A stretch of DNA of 11,216 bases from a virus: UHGV virus genome UHGV-0117802; one strand, written 5' to 3'. Every line of letters starts with the position of its first letter. The stretch's first letter is position 1. The position numbers and the translations under genes were made by a program. Below, piece after piece: positions 211 through 11,216 of this stretch. The notes below the pieces were generated by a model. That model worked only from the letters and a program-made list of their open reading frames with translations, was not told where the DNA came from and ran no database searches.

Positions 211-1608
211 TTAAGCTTTAATATATTTAAATTTGAAAGGATTCGCGTTAGGATCTAATGGTTTTATTACGCCCTCCTCCCTTAACTTTTGCAATGCCTT
301 TTTAACCTTTTGAAGGTCATCTTCGCCACTTAATTGTCTAACCAACTTATTTGTGAGCTGTCCCGTTGGATTTTCTTTAAAATAATTAATAATCACATCC
401 TCAATTGAGGCTATTGTTTGATGCTTAACTATTACAACAAAATTATTGCCCCTTTCTTCAAATACCGGGGCTACCAACCCGGCCTTACGCAATTCATTTT
501 TTGCAGTATCAAGCCCCTCACCAATATCATGGTTCACTGGATTGGGAAGTTTATGCAACAAACGCACTAAATTTGGATTACGAGAAAACCGCTCTTCATA
601 TAAATTATTAATAGTCATGTATCCAGGCAATCTGCCTGGACTTTGAACTTCAATCCGGTTGTCATAAACTTTTACGTGCACATCATCCTTTTGGCTGTAA
701 TCTCTATGAATAACAGCATTAACTAATATTTCCTTCAATGCTTCTGCAGGATAGCTAAGTTTTACTAGATTTTCGCCGTCTTTGAATGATGCTCCATCAA
801 CATATTCTTTTACTTTTGCTATTGTATTTAAAATAACCACTTCAAGTGGCCCCTCAATCGTTACAGGATCTTCCTGTAATTGTTCACGTTTGTACTCTGC
901 TTCAGTTGTTCTAAGCCGATATACTTTTACAGCACATCGAGTATCTAAACATCCTTGAGGCTCTTCATCAAATAGTAAAACACAGCCTACATTCGGGACA
1001 AATTCACCATCTTTCTTAGTTAACAGTCGTTGTTTTTTTAAAAAAACTCTCGGTGACTGAGTCGTTCCTATTCTACGTAAATAATCAGAATAATATTCAC
1101 TTTCAAGAATATCTTCTACTTCAACTATATCCACTGCTTTTTTTTCATAAGGTTCTGCGCCTTTAGAATAGGAAAGCTGAGTAATTCGCTCACCTTTTAT
1201 TTTTAATTTTTGCGCGTTAGCTCTTATAAAGCAATCGCCAGAGGCCGTGTAATGAACCTTGGGGCTTTTTGGTATATCCACATGTAAAATCAATCCATTG
1301 GAAGGTGTTCTTAAATATTCCACCTCAACATTCTCAACAGCTGGATTAGTATTTTCCAATAAGGTCGAAATAATAGCATTCGCTTCCTCTGGCTCATTGA
1401 AACCAGATATACGCTCTCTCCCCGAAGCTGCATCCTCTATGCCAATATAAATATTACCGCCATCAGCATTTGCAAATGCTACAAAAGTTTCTTGTAATTT
1501 ATTAGGCGCTATTTGCTTACTTTTAAAATCATTGAAATGATCTTCAGTAGTGTTTAACAACGCCTTAATTTCCTGCGCTGATATATCAATTACTTCATAC
1601 ATCTTCAT
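211..1608 (-). CDS. Schlafen/AlbA_2-like N-terminal domain + HATPase_c_4-like C-terminal domain protein (465 aa), function unknown; AT-rich cargo
   Basis: ATG at 1608 with AAGGA RBS. N-terminal motif ETFVAFANADGGNIYIGIED matches the AlbA_2/Schlafen (divergent AAA) core signature AFAN-x-GG-x-IGV-D. C-terminal EILVNAVIHRDY matches the HATPase_c_4 signature. Base composition is visibly more AT-rich than the phage backbone. Confidence 0.6.
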   Translation of the reverse strand: MKMYEVIDISAQEIKALLNTTEDHFNDFKSKQIAPNKLQETFVAFANADGGNIYIGIEDAASGRERISGFNEPEEANAIISTLLENTNPAVENVEVEYLRTPSNGLILHVDIPKSPKVHYTASGDCFIRANAQKLKIKGERITQLSYSKGAEPYEKKAVDIVEVEDILESEYYSDYLRRIGTTQSPRVFLKKQRLLTKKDGEFVPNVGCVLLFDEEPQGCLDTRCAVKVYRLRTTEAEYKREQLQEDPVTIEGPLEVVILNTIAKVKEYVDGASFKDGENLVKLSYPAEALKEILVNAVIHRDYSQKDDVHVKVYDNRIEVQSPGRLPGYMTINNLYEERFSRNPNLVRLLHKLPNPVNHDIGEGLDTAKNELRKAGLVAPVFEERGNNFVVIVKHQTIASIEDVIINYFKENPTGQLTNKLVRQLSGEDDLQKVKKALQKLREEGVIKPLDPNANPFKFKYIKA

Positions 1609-2050: not shown

Positions 2051-2476
2051 ATGAAAAGCTTTTACGTATTAATTTTAATTCTGGTTGCAAGCTTTGTTAG
2101 CGTCCCAGTTCAGGCGGTAACAGCTAAAAACTATGAGAAAGGAACTAAAGCTCAACAGAAATCAATATCTTACCTTTCATGTGCATTCTATGGCAGTAGC
2201 ACACAATTAGATCCTAGCTACACGGAGCAAGTACCTACAGCCGATATCAAGATATTACAGAAAGCAGCTTACCACGCTTACAACGATGCGCTCTCATACT
2301 TTGGCTATGAGGAACCAGATCACGAACAACGCATAATTGATTATGCTGAATTTGTGGCGTCGCAAGAAGCTGTGTTATGGGATAAGCCGGGAATGAATGG
2401 AAAGCAGGTAACACTAATTGCTCGTTCTCTCTACAATGAGAGTAACTGTAACTTGTTACTGGACTCAATTAAGTAG
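2051..2476 (+). CDS. Small secreted protein of unknown function (141 aa) with N-terminal signal peptide
   Basis: ATG at 2051 with GAGG RBS 5 nt upstream. N-terminus MKSFYVLILILVASFVSVPVQA has a positively charged n-region, hydrophobic core and AxA-type cleavage context. It is on the opposite strand to all neighbouring phage genes. No recognisable enzyme motif. Confidence 0.55.
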   Translation: MKSFYVLILILVASFVSVPVQAVTAKNYEKGTKAQQKSISYLSCAFYGSSTQLDPSYTEQVPTADIKILQKAAYHAYNDALSYFGYEEPDHEQRIIDYAEFVASQEAVLWDKPGMNGKQVTLIARSLYNESNCNLLLDSIK

Positions 2477-9075: not shown

Positions 9076-9200
9076 GATGCAACATTCCTCGTTTAATGAT
9101 GATTAATCAGGACGAATACGGATCGTTTGTATTTTGTGAACACCATAAACATACGATCGCACAGTGAAATCGTCAAGATAAAAGTTCACTTGGAGTGACC
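9076..9200. promoter_or_regulatory. Lysis-lysogeny switch region between apl and cI (promoters and operators)
   Basis: Candidate leftward promoter on the minus strand: TTGACG (9171-9176) - 17 bp - TATGTT (9148-9153). Direct repeats ATACGGATCG (9116-9125) and ATACGATCG (9151-9159), each containing GATC. Inverted GTGAAC (9136-9141) / GTTCAC (9184-9189). Confidence 0.5.
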
Positions 9201-9770
9201 ATGAATTTGGAGAAAGGCGGACGAGGCGCTATAGAGCGCATGGTAGAAGCTTATGGATTCAAAACTCGACAGGCGTTGTGCGATCATTTAGGAATCTCTA
9301 AAAGTACACTCGCCACACGCTACATGCGTGACTCATTCCCAGCAGAATGGGTAATCCAGTGCGCCCTTGAAACGGGCACCTCGCTTAATTGGCTCACAAC
9401 CGGACATGGTTCAAAGCAAACTTCAGGTAATACAAATACTATGGAAGTTGCTAAATATGTATTATCTGATGGTACCTTGCGTGAAGACGGTTTTTATATT
9501 TTTGATAAGGGATTTCTACCCTCTACGTTTAAAAAACCTTTTGTCATCACAGATAACAATTCTGAATTTATTTGTGATAAAGAATTTGATGATATACGTG
9601 ACGGTAAATGGGTAATAAGTATTGATGGCGAAATAACAATCCGCGATATTACTCGTTTACCCGGTGGAAGAATCTTCGTTGAAGGTGGAAACAGAGCCTT
9701 CGAGTGCAAGATAGAAGATGTTGAAATAATTGGGAAAATTATAAGTTTAACAATTAAGTACGTTAGGTAA
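9201..9770 (+). CDS. cI: CI repressor, phage 186 type (189 aa)
   Basis: N-terminal HTH region RQALCDHLGISKSTLATRYMRDSFPAEWVIQCALETGTSLNWL matches the Phage_CI_repr-type domain. Length is near 186 CI (192 aa). ATG at 9201 with GGAG RBS (the track start at 9195 is GTG). Followed by int on the same strand. Confidence 0.8.
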   Translation: MNLEKGGRGAIERMVEAYGFKTRQALCDHLGISKSTLATRYMRDSFPAEWVIQCALETGTSLNWLTTGHGSKQTSGNTNTMEVAKYVLSDGTLREDGFYIFDKGFLPSTFKKPFVITDNNSEFICDKEFDDIRDGKWVISIDGEITIRDITRLPGGRIFVEGGNRAFECKIEDVEIIGKIISLTIKYVR

Positions 9771-9785
9771 TACCGGGAGGAAACT

Positions 9786-9977
9786 ATGCTTGGTAAGGTA
9801 TTTTTTGTGGTTTTATCATGCTCTTTGTTATTAAACCCACTAACTACCTATGCTAAAAATTATCCTTGTTCTGGGAAAAAGGGAGGTGTCTCTCACTGTA
9901 CCTCCGATGGAAAGTTCGTTTGCAATGATGGAACTATTAGTAAATCAAAAAAAATCTGTACTAAAAACTCGCGATAA
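9786..9977 (+). CDS. Small secreted Cys-rich protein (63 aa) between cI and int
   Basis: Strong GGGAGG RBS 5 nt upstream of ATG. Signal-peptide-like N-terminus [23 protein letters not shown]. Mature part has 5 Cys and is Lys-rich. AT-rich codon usage. Confidence 0.5.
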
Positions 9978-10126
9978 ATTTTGCTTTTATATCTGCGCCT
10001 AATATAACAATGAGCCGCAGGCTAACCGCAAAAGTCACATACTCACATAGCAAAAAATAGCCAACTTCATTATGGCTTCAGTGAGATGTATGGTCGCAGG
10101 ATTTCATACATTGACACTGGTTATAT

Positions 10127-10142
10127 ATACAGTAAAAATGCT
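10127..10142 (+). promoter_or_regulatory. LexA-box-like palindrome CTGGTTATATATACAG upstream of int
   Basis: CTGG-N8-ACAG with an all-A/T spacer, two mismatches to the 16-bp LexA consensus. A TTGACA hexamer sits immediately upstream at 10121-10126. Lies about 20 bp before the int RBS. Confidence 0.3.
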
Positions 10143-10163
10143 CTCTATTGGAGGGCATTTTTT

Positions 10164-11216
10164 ATGGCAGTACGAAAACTCACCACAGGAAAATGGCTTT
10201 GCGAATGTTACCCCGCCGGACGTAGTGGGCGTCGTGTGCGTAAACAATTCGCCACCAAAGGCGAAGCTCTGGCTTTTGAGCGCCATACGATGGAAGAAAC
10301 CGAAGCAAAGCCCTGGCTGGGAGAATCAGTGGATCGTCGAACACTGAAAGACGTGGTTGAGCTATGGTTCAAACTACATGGTAAATCTCTAACCGCTGGG
10401 CAGCATGTCTATGATAAATTGCTGTTGATGGTTGACGCTCTGGGCAATCCCCTTGCAACCGATCTCACCTCTAAAATGTTTGCCCACTATCGAGATAAAC
10501 GCCTGACAGGTGAGATCTACTTCAGCGAGAAATGGAAGAAAGGAGCAAGCCCGGTCACCATTAACCTGGAGCAAAGCTATCTAAGTAGTGTTTTTAGCGA
10601 ACTATCCCGCCTGGGCGAATGGTCGTATCCAAACCCACTGGAGAACATGCGAAAATTCACCATCGCAGAAAAAGAGATGGCATGGCTTACCCATGAGCAG
10701 ATTGTTGAACTGCTGGCTGATTGCAAACGTCAGGACCCAATTCTGGCACTGGTAGTCAAGATATGCTTAAGCACAGGCGCACGCTGGCGAGAAGCAATAA
10801 ACCTTACCCGATCACAGGTGACTAAATACCGAATTACCTTTGTAAGAACGAAGGGGAAGAAAAACAGAAGCATCCCTATCAGTAAAGAGCTTTATGAAGA
10901 GATCATGGCGCTTGATGGGTTTAATTTCTTCACAGACTGCTATTTTCAATTTTTATCCGTGATGGAAAAAACGTCAATCGTGCTCCCTCGCGGTCAACTG
11001 ACACACGTTCTGCGCCATACGTTTGCGGCGCATTTCATGATGTCGGGTGGAAATATCCTTGCTTTGCAAAAAATCCTCGGACATCACGATATAAAAATGA
11101 CTATGCGTTACGCTCATCTGGCACCGGATCATCTGGAAACGGCGCTCCGTTTCAATCCTCTGGCAACGCTGCCAAGTGGCGACAAAGTGGCGGCAGCGGT
11201 TGGCATTACCCCGTAA
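10164..11216 (+). CDS. int: Tyrosine integrase, P2/186 family (350 aa)
   Basis: MAVRKLTTGKW..., LSTGARWREA, TFVRTKGKKNR, HVLRHTFAAHFMMSGGNILALQKILGH and MRYAHLAPDHLETA give the R...HxxR...Y catalytic layout and are near-collinear with P2 Int. ATG at 10164 with GGAGGG RBS. The gene ends at the window edge. Confidence 0.9.
   Translation: MAVRKLTTGKWLCECYPAGRSGRRVRKQFATKGEALAFERHTMEETEAKPWLGESVDRRTLKDVVELWFKLHGKSLTAGQHVYDKLLLMVDALGNPLATDLTSKMFAHYRDKRLTGEIYFSEKWKKGASPVTINLEQSYLSSVFSELSRLGEWSYPNPLENMRKFTIAEKEMAWLTHEQIVELLADCKRQDPILALVVKICLSTGARWREAINLTRSQVTKYRITFVRTKGKKNRSIPISKELYEEIMALDGFNFFTDCYFQFLSVMEKTSIVLPRGQLTHVLRHTFAAHFMMSGGNILALQKILGHHDIKMTMRYAHLAPDHLETALRFNPLATLPSGDKVAAAVGITP

What the first reader, a model, noticed from the sequence alone, without database searches (positions are those of the whole stretch)
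9786..9977. Small secreted Cys-rich ORF between cI and int, sharing an AKNY mature-end motif with the 141-aa secreted protein
The 63-aa ORF has a strong GGGAGG RBS and a signal-peptide-like N-terminus, followed by a Lys- and Cys-rich 40-residue tail (5 Cys). Both predicted secreted proteins in this window have AKNY immediately after the likely cleavage site (TAKNYEKG versus YAKNYPCS), and the underlying DNA matches 11 of 13 nt (GCTAAAAACTATG versus GCTAAAAATTATC). Being on the cI-int transcript, it would be made in the lysogen.
Basis: seen in the sequence. Interest (0 to 1): 0.5.

Follow-up and report, generated by a model that had tools for sequence, protein, structure and literature searches.

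The report
Prophage copy of periplasmic YdcA mini-protein
The 63-codon ORF between the prophage repressor and integrase genes is a real, strongly conserved gene for a small exported protein of the catalogued but uncharacterised YdcA family, and the 'AKNY' motif it shares with another protein in the window is a coincidence.

Summary
The ORF (9786-9977, +) is real. It has a GGGAGG Shine-Dalgarno 5 nt upstream, starts 15 nt after the cI stop, and was intact in 84 of 84 close relatives checked. Against the commonest allele it differs at 12 nt, 11 of them synonymous. It scores above the curated cutoff for the YdcA family (NCBIfam NF007463; PHROG 6000). RefSeq already names it 'YdcA family protein', and it is 57% identical to E. 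coli K-12 YdcA.

The predicted product is a Sec signal peptide cut after Ala23, then a 40-residue, +7, four-Cys periplasmic mini-protein. The fifth Cys lies in the signal peptide.

AKNY is chance. 47 of 120 gene pairs in the window share a 4-mer, the commonest allele reads ARNY, the 141-aa protein's relatives read DNNY, DKNY or DESY, and the register relative to cleavage differs.

YdcA genes recur downstream of the repressor in diverse P2-like prophages, including an unannotated ORF in Haemophilus phage HP2. The domain is also fused to SNase, Endonuclease_NS and PLD nucleases, and it probably resembles a lobe of Legionella Dis2. My best guess, at low confidence, is a lysogen-expressed periplasmic DNA-binding or polyanion-binding module. 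The function itself is untested.

The parts
9201..9770 (+). cI repressor gene (the open frame starts at GTG 9195; the RefSeq annotation of the 100%-identical CUVM3 region starts at the position of ATG 9201)
   Evidence: Pfam Phage_CI_repr E=2.8e-33 and Phage_CI_C E=1.8e-28. Annotated 'phage repressor protein CI' in the identical E. coli CUVM3 region.
9775..9780 (+). Shine-Dalgarno GGGAGG, 5 nt before the ATG of ORF63
   Evidence: Read directly from the sequence.
9786..9977 (+). ydcA-like gene (63 codons plus stop)
   Evidence: ORF list. NCBIfam NF007463 at 116.1 bits against a cutoff of 93. phrog_6000 E=4.6e-34. RefSeq name 'YdcA family protein'. 11 of 12 nt differences to the commonest allele are synonymous.
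9786..9854 (+). Predicted Sec signal peptide (residues 1-23), cleaved after T-Y-A
   Evidence: K4, then the hydrophobic run [12 protein letters not shown], then NPLTTYA. Ala at -1 is invariant in alignment A2 while the preceding residues vary. No SignalP run was possible.
9855..9974 (+). Mature 40-residue YdcA domain, [40 protein letters not shown]: 4 Cys, net +7, about 4.26 kDa
   Evidence: Invariant P27, C28, S29, K32, G33, G34, C38, F44, C46, D48, G49, S52, S54, K55, C58. AlphaFold2 pLDDT 84-92 over residues 31-60. Charge and mass.
9852..9864 (+). The 13-mer GCTAAAAATTATC encoding A-K-N-Y; coincidental match to 2123-2135
2051..2476 (+). The 141-aa secreted protein used as comparator; unrelated to ORF63
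   Evidence: phrog_7437 only. Its homologues do not conserve the A and K of AKNY. It lies in the interval between the replication gene (gpA homologue) and the portal gene, a known cargo hotspot of P2-like phages.
10134..10162 (+). Terminator-like hairpin plus U-run that also covers the int Shine-Dalgarno (GGAGGG)
   Evidence: RNA fold -17.5 kcal/mol, z = -4.69, 0 of 200 shuffles fold as well.
10164..11216 (+). Integrase gene (P2/186-type tyrosine recombinase); the prophage end abuts rcdA in E. coli CUVM3
   Evidence: Pfam Int_N E=3e-32 and Phage_integrase E=7e-22. Annotation.

Best explanation
ORF63 is a prophage-borne member of the YdcA family.

Shown or nearly shown:
- It is a real gene under strong purifying selection.
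- It is placed to be co-transcribed with cI, with a 15-nt gap and its own strong Shine-Dalgarno.
- It encodes a Sec signal peptide followed by a 40-residue, highly cationic domain with four invariant Cys.

Inferred steps:
1. The pre-protein is exported by Sec and cut after Ala23.
2. Periplasmic oxidation (DsbA) forms two disulfides, giving a compact, stable mini-protein of about 4.3 kDa in the lysogen's periplasm.
3. This domain is a ligand-binding module for a polyanion, most probably DNA. The same domain is found, behind a signal peptide, at the N-terminus of secreted nucleases of three unrelated catalytic folds. One of these fusions sits in the same slot of another P2-like phage.
4. As a free-standing copy expressed with the repressor, it acts as a lysogenic-conversion ('moron') factor. 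It would change how the lysogen's envelope deals with incoming or periplasmic DNA, for example exclusion of foreign DNA, or interplay with periplasmic nucleases or uptake machinery.

The identity and export part deserves about 0.9 confidence. The DNA-binding and exclusion mechanism deserves about 0.3. The figure given below is for the mechanism.
For: Identity:
- NF007463 scores 116.1 bits against a cutoff of 93.
- phrog_6000 E=4.6e-34.
- 57% identity to K-12 YdcA, E=1e-19.
- PGAP name 'YdcA family protein'.
- Pfam PF27300:YdcA is recorded on homologues.

Selection:
- 11 synonymous and 1 conservative (K24R) difference to the commonest allele.
- In the 32-codon core, pS=0.39 with pN=0. In distant relatives pS is saturated with pN of 0.09-0.21.
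- 84 of 84 copies are intact.

Lysogeny-operon position recurs:
- Yersinia (3 species), Buttiauxella and Escherichia prophages have cI-ydcA-int with cI only 35-38% and int about 48% identical.
- In HP2 the ORF start overlaps the cI stop.
- In Comamonas, Iodobacter and Oceanisphaera P2-like prophages it lies downstream of, and co-oriented with, an HTH or S24 repressor, with Phage_GPD or a replication-gene homologue marking the element as P2-like. Kingella, Aquabacterium and Acinetobacter lwoffii P2-like prophages share the same neighbour clusters, but no repressor was confirmed there.
- A metagenomic phage-like contig has an HTH gene overlapping a YdcA gene.

Nuclease link:
- Pfam-confirmed fusions are YdcA+SNase (P0116), YdcA+Endonuclease_NS (three clusters, including P0204 and P0181) and YdcA+PLDc_2 (P0193).
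- One fusion occurs in a Crenothrix genome (L055).
- There is a sub-threshold HNH tail in P0220.
- A likely SNase-type gene lies next to a ydcA-like gene in Shinella (L057). This rests on a weak phmmer hit, E=5e-4, to an ORF that overlaps the ydcA-like match in another frame, plus a motif read by eye.
- The YdcA-SNase fusion lies next to gpD-gpU-tape measure in a P2-like contig, the same slot as free-standing copies.

Charge: 172 of 181 distinct core domains carry a net charge of +1 or more, median +3. This copy is +7.

Precedent: mobile elements encode periplasmic DNases that destroy incoming DNA (IdeA, SxnA, Dns). This comes from the review PMC12378983.
Against: - No experiment bears on DNA binding.
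- ORF63 has no catalytic domain.
- Only 5 of 149 representative clusters have Pfam-confirmed nuclease fusions. Most are free-standing or carry unrelated low-complexity tails.
- A cationic module could equally bind LPS, phospholipid or another envelope component and merely anchor the nucleases.
- The only solved relative, Dis2, is a structural piece of a secretion machine near the outer membrane, with no reported DNA contact.
- The published K-12 ydcA phenotypes concern acid and 3-hydroxypropionate stress, not DNA.
- There is no PADLOC defence hit.
- Phage DNA normally crosses the periplasm inside a conduit, so simple 'DNA capture' would not obviously block injection.
Confidence: 0.3

Rival explanations
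1. Envelope-anchoring or adaptor module. The YdcA domain binds the inner face of the outer membrane, or an envelope machine, as Dis2 does in the Dot/Icm outer-membrane cap. In the fusions it only tethers the nucleases. The free prophage copy would decorate or modify an envelope structure, for example by masking a receptor or channel used by other phages or plasmids.
For: - Dis2 (Lpg0823) is the only significant PDB sequence hit: phmmer E=3e-5, profile E=1e-4.
- Dis2 gives the top two Foldseek hits, prob 0.90-0.95, while the next hit has prob 0.11.
- A Dis2-like protein (P0229) carries PF27300.
- hhalign gives probability 68%, E=4.7e-5, to lobe 2.
- Dis2 lies 'near the outer membrane' and is disulfide-pinned.
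- One family member carries a T6SS VasL domain and two carry DUF4124.
- The cationic surface would suit anionic lipid or LPS.
Against: - With the signal peptide removed, the PDB match falls to E=0.012.
- There are no T4SS or T6SS genes in the window or in most loci.
- Nucleases of three unrelated catalytic folds as fusion partners are explained more directly by substrate binding.
Confidence: 0.25
2. General envelope-stress or acid-tolerance factor. The prophage supplies an extra copy of a host periplasmic stress protein that improves lysogen fitness, with no role in DNA or exclusion.
For: - In E. coli W, deleting ydcA made cells sensitive to 300 mM 3-hydroxypropionate. The authors cite acid (pH 5) induction through YdcI (PMC7642389).
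- An RpoS-holoenzyme SELEX peak lies in the rydC/ydcA intergenic region (PMC5493296).
- ydcA is up-regulated in a persister-enriched growth phase.
- Chromosomal, non-prophage copies exist in Escherichia, Citrobacter and Atlantibacter.
Against: - These are phenotypes, not a mechanism, and come from single studies.
- It does not explain the nuclease fusions, or the repeated capture by phages and small plasmids in many genera.
Confidence: 0.15
3. Exported toxin, bacteriocin or defensin-like antimicrobial peptide, or a protease inhibitor of the small disulfide-rich kind.
For: - It is small, cationic and disulfide-rich.
- There are weak PDB sequence matches to Pin-II type proteinase inhibitors, E=0.07-0.3.
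Against: - Those matches are not significant and reflect Cys spacing.
- No immunity, export or processing genes are adjacent.
- A Sec signal alone leaves the product in the periplasm.
- The family sits as a single-copy chromosomal gene in K-12.
Confidence: 0.05
4. AKNY is a shared functional motif, such as a sorting or processing signal or a trace of common origin, that links ORF63 to the 141-aa secreted protein.
For: The same four residues occur near the N-terminus of both. In shuffles, a shared 4-mer falls within residues 15-38 of both proteins only 0.4% of the time, although that comparison was chosen after the fact.
Against: - 47 of 120 gene pairs in the window share a 4-mer.
- K24 is the one polymorphic residue of ORF63, and 49 of 84 copies read ARNY.
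- The 141-aa family has D, not A, and N, K or E, not K, at those positions.
- The register relative to the cleavage site differs.
- There is no other similarity between the proteins.
Confidence: 0.03

Closest known systems
E. coli K-12 YdcA (b1419) and the YdcA family (NCBIfam NF007463/PRK10040, Pfam PF27300, PHROG 6000)
   Same: - Same architecture: a signal peptide ending in Ala, then a domain of about 35-40 residues with the motif PCSG-KGG-x3-C ... F-x-C-x-DG-x2-S-x-S-K-x2-C.
- 57% identity to K-12 YdcA.
- The HMM score is above the curated cutoff.
   Different: - It is carried in a prophage lysogeny operon rather than at the chromosomal cybB-rydC-ydcA-hokB locus.
- Its mature N-terminus is 'NYP', whereas K-12 has 'GRKP'.
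- The family has no established function.
Legionella pneumophila Dis2 (Lpg0823), a component of the Dot/Icm type IVB secretion system outer-membrane cap (PDB 7MUC/7MUD)
   Same: - Exported and disulfide-stabilised.
- It shares the ...GG[VI]x-x-C...G-x-x-V-C-N-[DN]-G-x-x-S motif.
- It is the best and only meaningful PDB match by both sequence and Foldseek.
   Different: - Dis2 has two lobes and five disulfides and is built into a T4SS. ORF63 is a single lobe with four Cys and has no T4SS context.
Periplasmic DNases of mobile elements that degrade incoming DNA (IdeA of ICE VchInd5, SxnA of SXT, Dns of C. jejuni CJIE1)
   Same: - Accessory genes of integrated mobile elements whose exported products act on DNA in the periplasm (PMC12378983).
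- YdcA-SNase, YdcA-Endonuclease_NS and YdcA-PLD fusions look like this class, and one sits in a P2-like phage.
   Different: - ORF63 has no nuclease domain.
- No sequence relation to IdeA or Dns was tested or claimed.
Accessory ('moron') cargo and defence hotspots of P2-like phages (old, tin, Z/fun; the gpA-portal hotspot)
   Same: - It is a non-essential gene in a variable slot, expressed from the prophage.
- The integrase-primase interval is reported as a minor defence hotspot of P2-like prophages (PMC13586616).
- The same cI-int slot holds a PDC-S20 KAP NTPase next to ydcA in E. coli JA0072.
   Different: - No defence activity is shown and there is no PADLOC hit.
- Phage 186 itself has no gene in this slot; cI and int overlap there.

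Membership tests
YdcA family (NCBIfam NF007463 / Pfam PF27300 / PHROG 6000) | Profile score above the curated cutoff | tested here: met
   NF007463 scores 116.1 bits against a cutoff of 93, E=4.2e-34. phrog_6000 E=4.6e-34. PF27300 is absent from the local Pfam copy but is recorded on the 97%-identical cluster representative.
YdcA family (NCBIfam NF007463 / Pfam PF27300 / PHROG 6000) | Four-Cys core motif PCSG-KGG-x3-C-x5-7-C-x-DG-x2-S-x-S-K-x2-C | tested here: met
   All invariant columns of the 32-sequence alignment are present in ORF63.
YdcA family (NCBIfam NF007463 / Pfam PF27300 / PHROG 6000) | N-terminal Sec signal peptide with a signal peptidase I site | tested here: inconclusive
   The sequence features fit: K4, a 12-residue hydrophobic core, T-Y-A, and an invariant Ala at -1. 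No signal-peptide predictor or experiment was available.
YdcA family (NCBIfam NF007463 / Pfam PF27300 / PHROG 6000) | Direct similarity to the name-giving protein, E. coli K-12 YdcA | tested here: met
   BLASTP 57% identity, E=1e-19. The K-12 sequence was verified from NC_000913.
Dis2 (Lpg0823)-type T4BSS outer-membrane-cap protein | Two homologous lobes pinned by five disulfides | tested here: not met
   ORF63 has one lobe and four mature Cys. The description of Dis2 is in PMC8486379.
Dis2 (Lpg0823)-type T4BSS outer-membrane-cap protein | Sequence and fold homology of the lobe | tested here: inconclusive
Dis2 (Lpg0823)-type T4BSS outer-membrane-cap protein | Genomic or physical association with a Dot/Icm-type secretion system | tested here: not met
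   No T4SS genes are in the window, and none appear among the recurrent neighbours of 80 genomic loci.
Bacterial lipoprotein | Conserved lipobox with an invariant Cys at +1 | tested here: not met
   'VLSC' at residues 9-12 resembles a lipobox. However, Cys12 lies inside the hydrophobic core, very near the N-terminus, and is replaced by F, G, S, T or V in homologues.
Mobile-element periplasmic DNase (IdeA/Dns-like) | A catalytic nuclease domain | tested here: not met
   ORF63 has no nuclease domain. Only some relatives carry SNase, Endonuclease_NS or PLDc_2.
Known anti-phage defence systems (PADLOC-DB) | A match to any defence-protein model | tested here: not met
   0 families at E<=0.01.
Pin-II / small disulfide-rich protease inhibitors | Significant sequence match and the family's eight-Cys pattern | tested here: not met
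   E=0.07-0.3 only. ORF63 has four mature Cys.

The most novel reading that the evidence does not exclude
The YdcA domain is a previously unrecognised extracytoplasmic DNA-binding mini-domain, used by secreted nucleases of several catalytic folds and perhaps retained in Dis2. Temperate phages and small plasmids deploy the free-standing domain from their lysogeny or maintenance operons to interfere with DNA entering the periplasm. The targets could be natural transformation, conjugation or superinfection. This would protect the element from being displaced or out-competed. From general knowledge, many host genera seen here are naturally transformable: Haemophilus, Moraxella, Acinetobacter, Neisseria, Kingella and Psychrobacter.
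Probability: 0.2. Interest if true: 0.6.

Novelty: already known. Interest (0 to 1): 0.3.

Why it matters
As a sequence feature it is ordinary. The exact protein is in RefSeq and is seen on more than 1000 contigs. It belongs to a named family.

What is worth keeping is that the family has no known function, yet three things stand out:
- It is extremely constrained.
- Temperate phages have captured it again and again directly behind their repressor genes, and small plasmids carry it too.
- It is fused to at least three unrelated kinds of secreted nuclease.

That gives a cheap, testable hypothesis for an orphan E. coli K-12 gene (ydcA) and for a common prophage cargo gene. It also suggests what the unexplained Dis2 subunit of the Legionella Dot/Icm machine is built from. 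BL21(DE3) carries a 97%-identical locus, so the experiments are easy.

Tried and rejected
- AKNY as a motif: rejected.
- Spurious ORF: rejected by synonymous versus non-synonymous counts and intactness.
- Lipoprotein: rejected.
- Local Pfam scan of ORF63: only a sub-threshold GULLO2-like hit, E=0.068.
- lpg1681 family: E=0.11, not meaningful. That paper concerns a protein with two transmembrane helices.
- Homologues of the 141-aa protein in phage genomes: none by tblastn.
- A universal conserved neighbour of ydcA genes: none was found among 80 genomic loci. The proteins downstream in HP2, Moraxella and Acinetobacter phages and in small plasmids are heterogeneous. Only the two plasmid ones are weakly alike.
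- Foldseek against viral structures: nothing with prob above 0.2.
- The afdb50 library was unavailable.
- PADLOC: no hit for ORF63 or the 141-aa protein.
- Literature on YdcA: 28 papers mention the term, and the E. coli-related ones I read assign no function.
- The promoter scan found no more sites than chance, and pL was not located.

Full report
**What is in the sequence**

The window is the early and lysogeny end of a 186/P2-like (Peduoviridae-type) prophage. Over 9100-10250 it is 100% identical to E. coli CUVM3, where the element abuts rcdA. The gene order is apl-cII-fil... on the minus strand and cI, ORF63, int on the plus strand.

ORF63 runs 9786-9977. Its ATG is 15 nt after the cI stop, and GGGAGG (9775-9780) lies 5 nt upstream. 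The product is [23 protein letters not shown] / [40 protein letters not shown]. The Cys are at positions 12, 28, 38, 46 and 58, so one is in the signal peptide and four are in the 40-residue tail, not five. The tail has 8 Lys and 1 Arg against 2 Asp, giving net +7 and about 4.26 kDa.

**It is a real gene**

In 84 closely related copies (80 IMG/VR contigs and 4 genomes) the ORF is intact, with the same spacing to cI, while cI itself ranges from 87 to 100% identity.

Against the commonest allele the window copy differs at 12 nucleotides. Eleven are synonymous and one is the conservative change K24R. In the 32-codon core, pS=0.39 with pN=0. In distant relatives the synonymous sites are saturated while pN stays at 0.09-0.21.

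591 of 5426 complete E. coli genomes hold at least 80% of the cI-ORF63-int segment. Every one of the 15 sampled rows covering at least 87% of it has a CDS annotated between cI and int. The one truncated copy I found (strain AH21) belongs to a prophage degraded by an IS5-family insertion that also removed cI.

**What it is**

It is a YdcA-family protein.
- NCBIfam NF007463 (PRK10040.1-2) scores 116.1 bits against a cutoff of 93.
- PHROG 6000 matches at E=4.6e-34.
- RefSeq calls it 'YdcA family protein' or 'hypothetical protein'.
- Homologues carry Pfam PF27300, which the collection names 'YdcA'.
- It is 57% identical to E. coli K-12 YdcA, whose sequence I verified from NC_000913.

Across the family the N-terminal 20-25 residues vary but stay hydrophobic. 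An Ala is invariant at the position of Ala23. The following domain is highly conserved, with invariant P27, C28, S29, K32, G33, G34, C38, F44, C46, D48, G49, S52, S54, K55 and C58. That is the pattern of a cleaved Sec signal peptide followed by a folded domain.

Cys12 is not conserved, so the lipobox-like 'VLSC' does not mark a lipoprotein. The AlphaFold2 model is confident (pLDDT 84-92) only over the Cys-containing domain.

The literature gives the family no function. K-12 YdcA is described as a 57-aa predicted periplasmic protein of unknown function. One study found that an E. coli W ydcA deletion is sensitive to 300 mM 3-hydroxypropionate, and it cites acid induction.

**The AKNY observation**

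The four residues and the two 13-mers are there, at 9852 and 2123, but they carry no signal.
- 47 of 120 gene pairs in this window share some 4-mer, and a shuffled pair of these two proteins does so 8.7% of the time.
- K24 is the only polymorphic residue of ORF63, and 49 of 84 copies read ARNY. What the family conserves is A|x-N-Y-P-C in one subfamily and G-R-x-P-C in another.
- In homologues of the 141-aa protein the same positions read TDNNY, SDKNY, SDESY or SDENY.
- Those homologues can only be cleaved after residue 22, because the later site would put Asp at -1. AKNY therefore lies at +3 to +6 in the 141-aa protein, but at -1 to +3 in ORF63.

**Context elsewhere**

Phage 186 has no gene between cI and int; they overlap there. 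ORF63 plus the 186-bp spacer is therefore an insertion into the lysogenic operon.

The same arrangement, cI-ydcA-int, occurs in prophages of three Yersinia species, Buttiauxella and Escherichia. Their cI is only 35-38% identical and their int about 48% identical to those here, while the YdcA core is about 75-80% identical.

In Haemophilus phages HP2 and S2, an unannotated 60-codon YdcA ORF starts on the cI stop codon. It is followed by orf1(S) and int, downstream of the annotated pL.

In P2-like prophages of Comamonas, Iodobacter and Oceanisphaera the gene lies downstream of, and co-oriented with, an HTH or S24 repressor. An adjacent gpD gene cluster, or a replication-gene homologue in Oceanisphaera, marks these elements as P2-like. 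Prophages of Kingella, Aquabacterium and Acinetobacter lwoffii share the same neighbour clusters, but no repressor was confirmed in them.

Other homes for the gene are:
- the late regions of Moraxella and Acinetobacter siphophages;
- small Acinetobacter and Psychrobacter plasmids;
- chromosomal loci such as cybB-rydC-ydcA-hokB in Escherichia.

The family was found in 229 species-level genomes of Alpha-, Beta- and Gammaproteobacteria and in 505 viral contigs. It forms 462 clusters at 50% identity. No single neighbour is universal.

The cI-int slot is a cargo slot. E. coli JA0072 has ydcA followed by a KAP NTPase matching the PADLOC candidate system PDC-S20 at E=2e-171. Klebsiella phage 4LV2017 has an unrelated 349-aa gene there. 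A 2026 survey lists the integrase-primase interval as a minor defence hotspot of P2-like prophages.

**Leads to mechanism**

*(a) Domain fusions.* Among 149 representative clusters, the commonest recognisable partners are secreted nucleases of three unrelated catalytic folds: Endonuclease_NS (three clusters), SNase and PLDc_2. Further observations:
- A YdcA-Endonuclease_NS gene occurs in a Crenothrix genome.
- There is a sub-threshold HNH tail in one member.
- A likely SNase-type gene lies next to ydcA in Shinella, resting on a weak hit of E=5e-4.
- The YdcA-SNase fusion lies in a P2-like contig beside gpD-gpU-tape measure, the slot that free-standing copies occupy in other P2-like prophages.

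*(b) Charge.* The domain is almost always cationic, with net charge of +1 or more in 172 of 181 distinct cores.

*(c) A solved relative.* The only meaningful match to a solved structure is Dis2 (Lpg0823) of the Legionella Dot/Icm outer-membrane cap.
- phmmer gives E=3e-5 and the profile gives E=1e-4, but only 0.012 once signal peptides are removed.
- Dis2 gives the top two Foldseek hits at prob 0.90-0.95.
- A Dis2-like protein carries PF27300.
- hhalign gives 68% probability to lobe 2.
- Dis2 is described as two similar lobes pinned by five disulfides near the outer membrane, with no known structural relatives or function.

I regard the relationship as probable but unproven.

**Best explanation and rivals**

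I am confident (about 0.9) that ORF63 is exported, cleaved after Ala23, oxidised to a two-disulfide mini-protein, and expressed with cI in the lysogen.

For what it does, the most economical reading of the fusions and the charge is a small binding module for DNA, or another polyanion, in the periplasm. The free-standing prophage copy would then act as a lysogenic-conversion factor affecting incoming DNA. Mobile-element periplasmic DNases that block transformation are an established precedent. I give this about 0.3.

The main rival, at about 0.25, is an envelope-anchoring or adaptor role like that of Dis2. A plain stress-tolerance role gets about 0.15, toxin or inhibitor roles about 0.05, and the AKNY link about 0.03.

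**Side observation on transcription**

A 13-bp hairpin with a U-run (10134-10162; -17.5 kcal/mol, z=-4.7) ends one base before the int ATG and buries int's GGAGGG. It looks like a terminator or attenuator that could limit int expression from the maintenance transcript. If so, cI-ORF63 would be the main lysogenic message. This is inference only.

**Verdict**

The ORF is real and exported, and it is probably made in the lysogen. However, it is an already catalogued YdcA-family protein, and the motif that prompted the finding is a coincidence. Interest is modest. It rests on the family's unknown function, its recurrent placement behind phage repressors, and the nuclease fusions.

Noticed in passing
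window 10134-10162 (+), just before the int ATG at 10164: A strong terminator-like hairpin (AAAAAUGCUCUCU-AUU-GGAGGGCAUUUUU plus U) at -17.5 kcal/mol, z=-4.7. It sequesters the int Shine-Dalgarno and could attenuate int expression from the cI transcript. A promoter-like site, TTGACA-17-AAAAAT, lies at 10111-10139.
   Followed up: partly
L171 3056-4583 (E. coli JA0072); L173 813-1862 (Klebsiella phage 4LV2017); L172 (phage 186): The cI-int interval is a variable cargo slot. JA0072 has ydcA plus a KAP NTPase matching the PADLOC candidate system PDC-S20 (E=2e-171). 4LV2017 has an unrelated 349-aa gene. In phage 186, cI and int overlap with nothing between them.
   Followed up: partly
L001 2920-3102 (Haemophilus phage HP2, also S2); L003 3417-3602 (Acinetobacter phage Ab11510-phi): YdcA-family ORFs that the deposited records do not annotate. 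In HP2 the ATG overlaps the cI stop (ATGA), and a second secreted protein, orf1(S), follows before int.
   Followed up: yes
window 211-1608 (-) and 2051-2476 (+): These genes lie in the interval between the replication gene and the portal gene, the known defence hotspot of P2-like phages. The 465-aa ORF matches PADLOC pAgo-type and pAgo-associated (Aga) models (E=1e-19). CUVM3 annotates it as two CDSs, an ATP-binding protein and an AlbA-family DNA-binding protein. The neighbouring 141-aa secreted protein has only a few enterobacterial homologues and no family.
   Followed up: partly
L174 4001-4669; L175 5001-5648; L178 813-1799; L055 1732-2655; L179 5001-5417: Signal peptide plus YdcA domain fused to SNase, PLDc_2, Endonuclease_NS (twice) and a weak HNH-like tail. 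The SNase fusion sits in a P2-like contig next to gpD/gpU/tape measure. The HNH-like one overlaps an upstream HTH gene in a phage-like contig.
   Followed up: yes
L050 5926-6348, L056 5986-6348, L080 3477-3815, L083 5923-6249, L070 673-996; proteins P0056-P0062: Many beta- and alphaproteobacterial homologues carry a second conserved Cys-rich, basic C-terminal module, C-x-C-R-S-G-x-Y-C-T-G-P-R-G-G-x-Y-C-x2-D-S-G-R-K-S-Y. No Pfam family was reported for it.
   Followed up: no
proteins P0080, P0081, P0083, P0084: Tandem arrays of two or three YdcA domains in one exported protein. The two-domain forms (127-131 aa) are the size of two-lobed Dis2 (124 aa).
   Followed up: no
L007 728-1697 (A. pittii pApiMCR53a, 3.9 kb); L008 1281-2440 (Psychrobacter pA40P1): On very small plasmids (the A. 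pittii one typed mobilizable MOBQ, the Psychrobacter one typed non-mobilizable but carrying a MobA/MobL gene), the ydcA-like gene is followed by a membrane-anchored protein of 243 or 319 aa. The C-terminal domains of these two are weakly similar, 30% over 46 aa. This may be a partner protein.
   Followed up: partly
L172 1658-1909 (phage 186 Orf69): The extra gene at the end of the 186 lysogenic operon encodes an 83-aa protein made of LAPDGTYVGG-like repeats. It is unrelated to YdcA.
   Followed up: no
L170 1373-2625 (E. coli AH21): An IS5-family element (ISKpn26) lies at a deletion that removed the region from fil through cI and the 5' half of the ydcA-like ORF. The result is a degraded prophage that still carries int next to rcdA.
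   Followed up: yes
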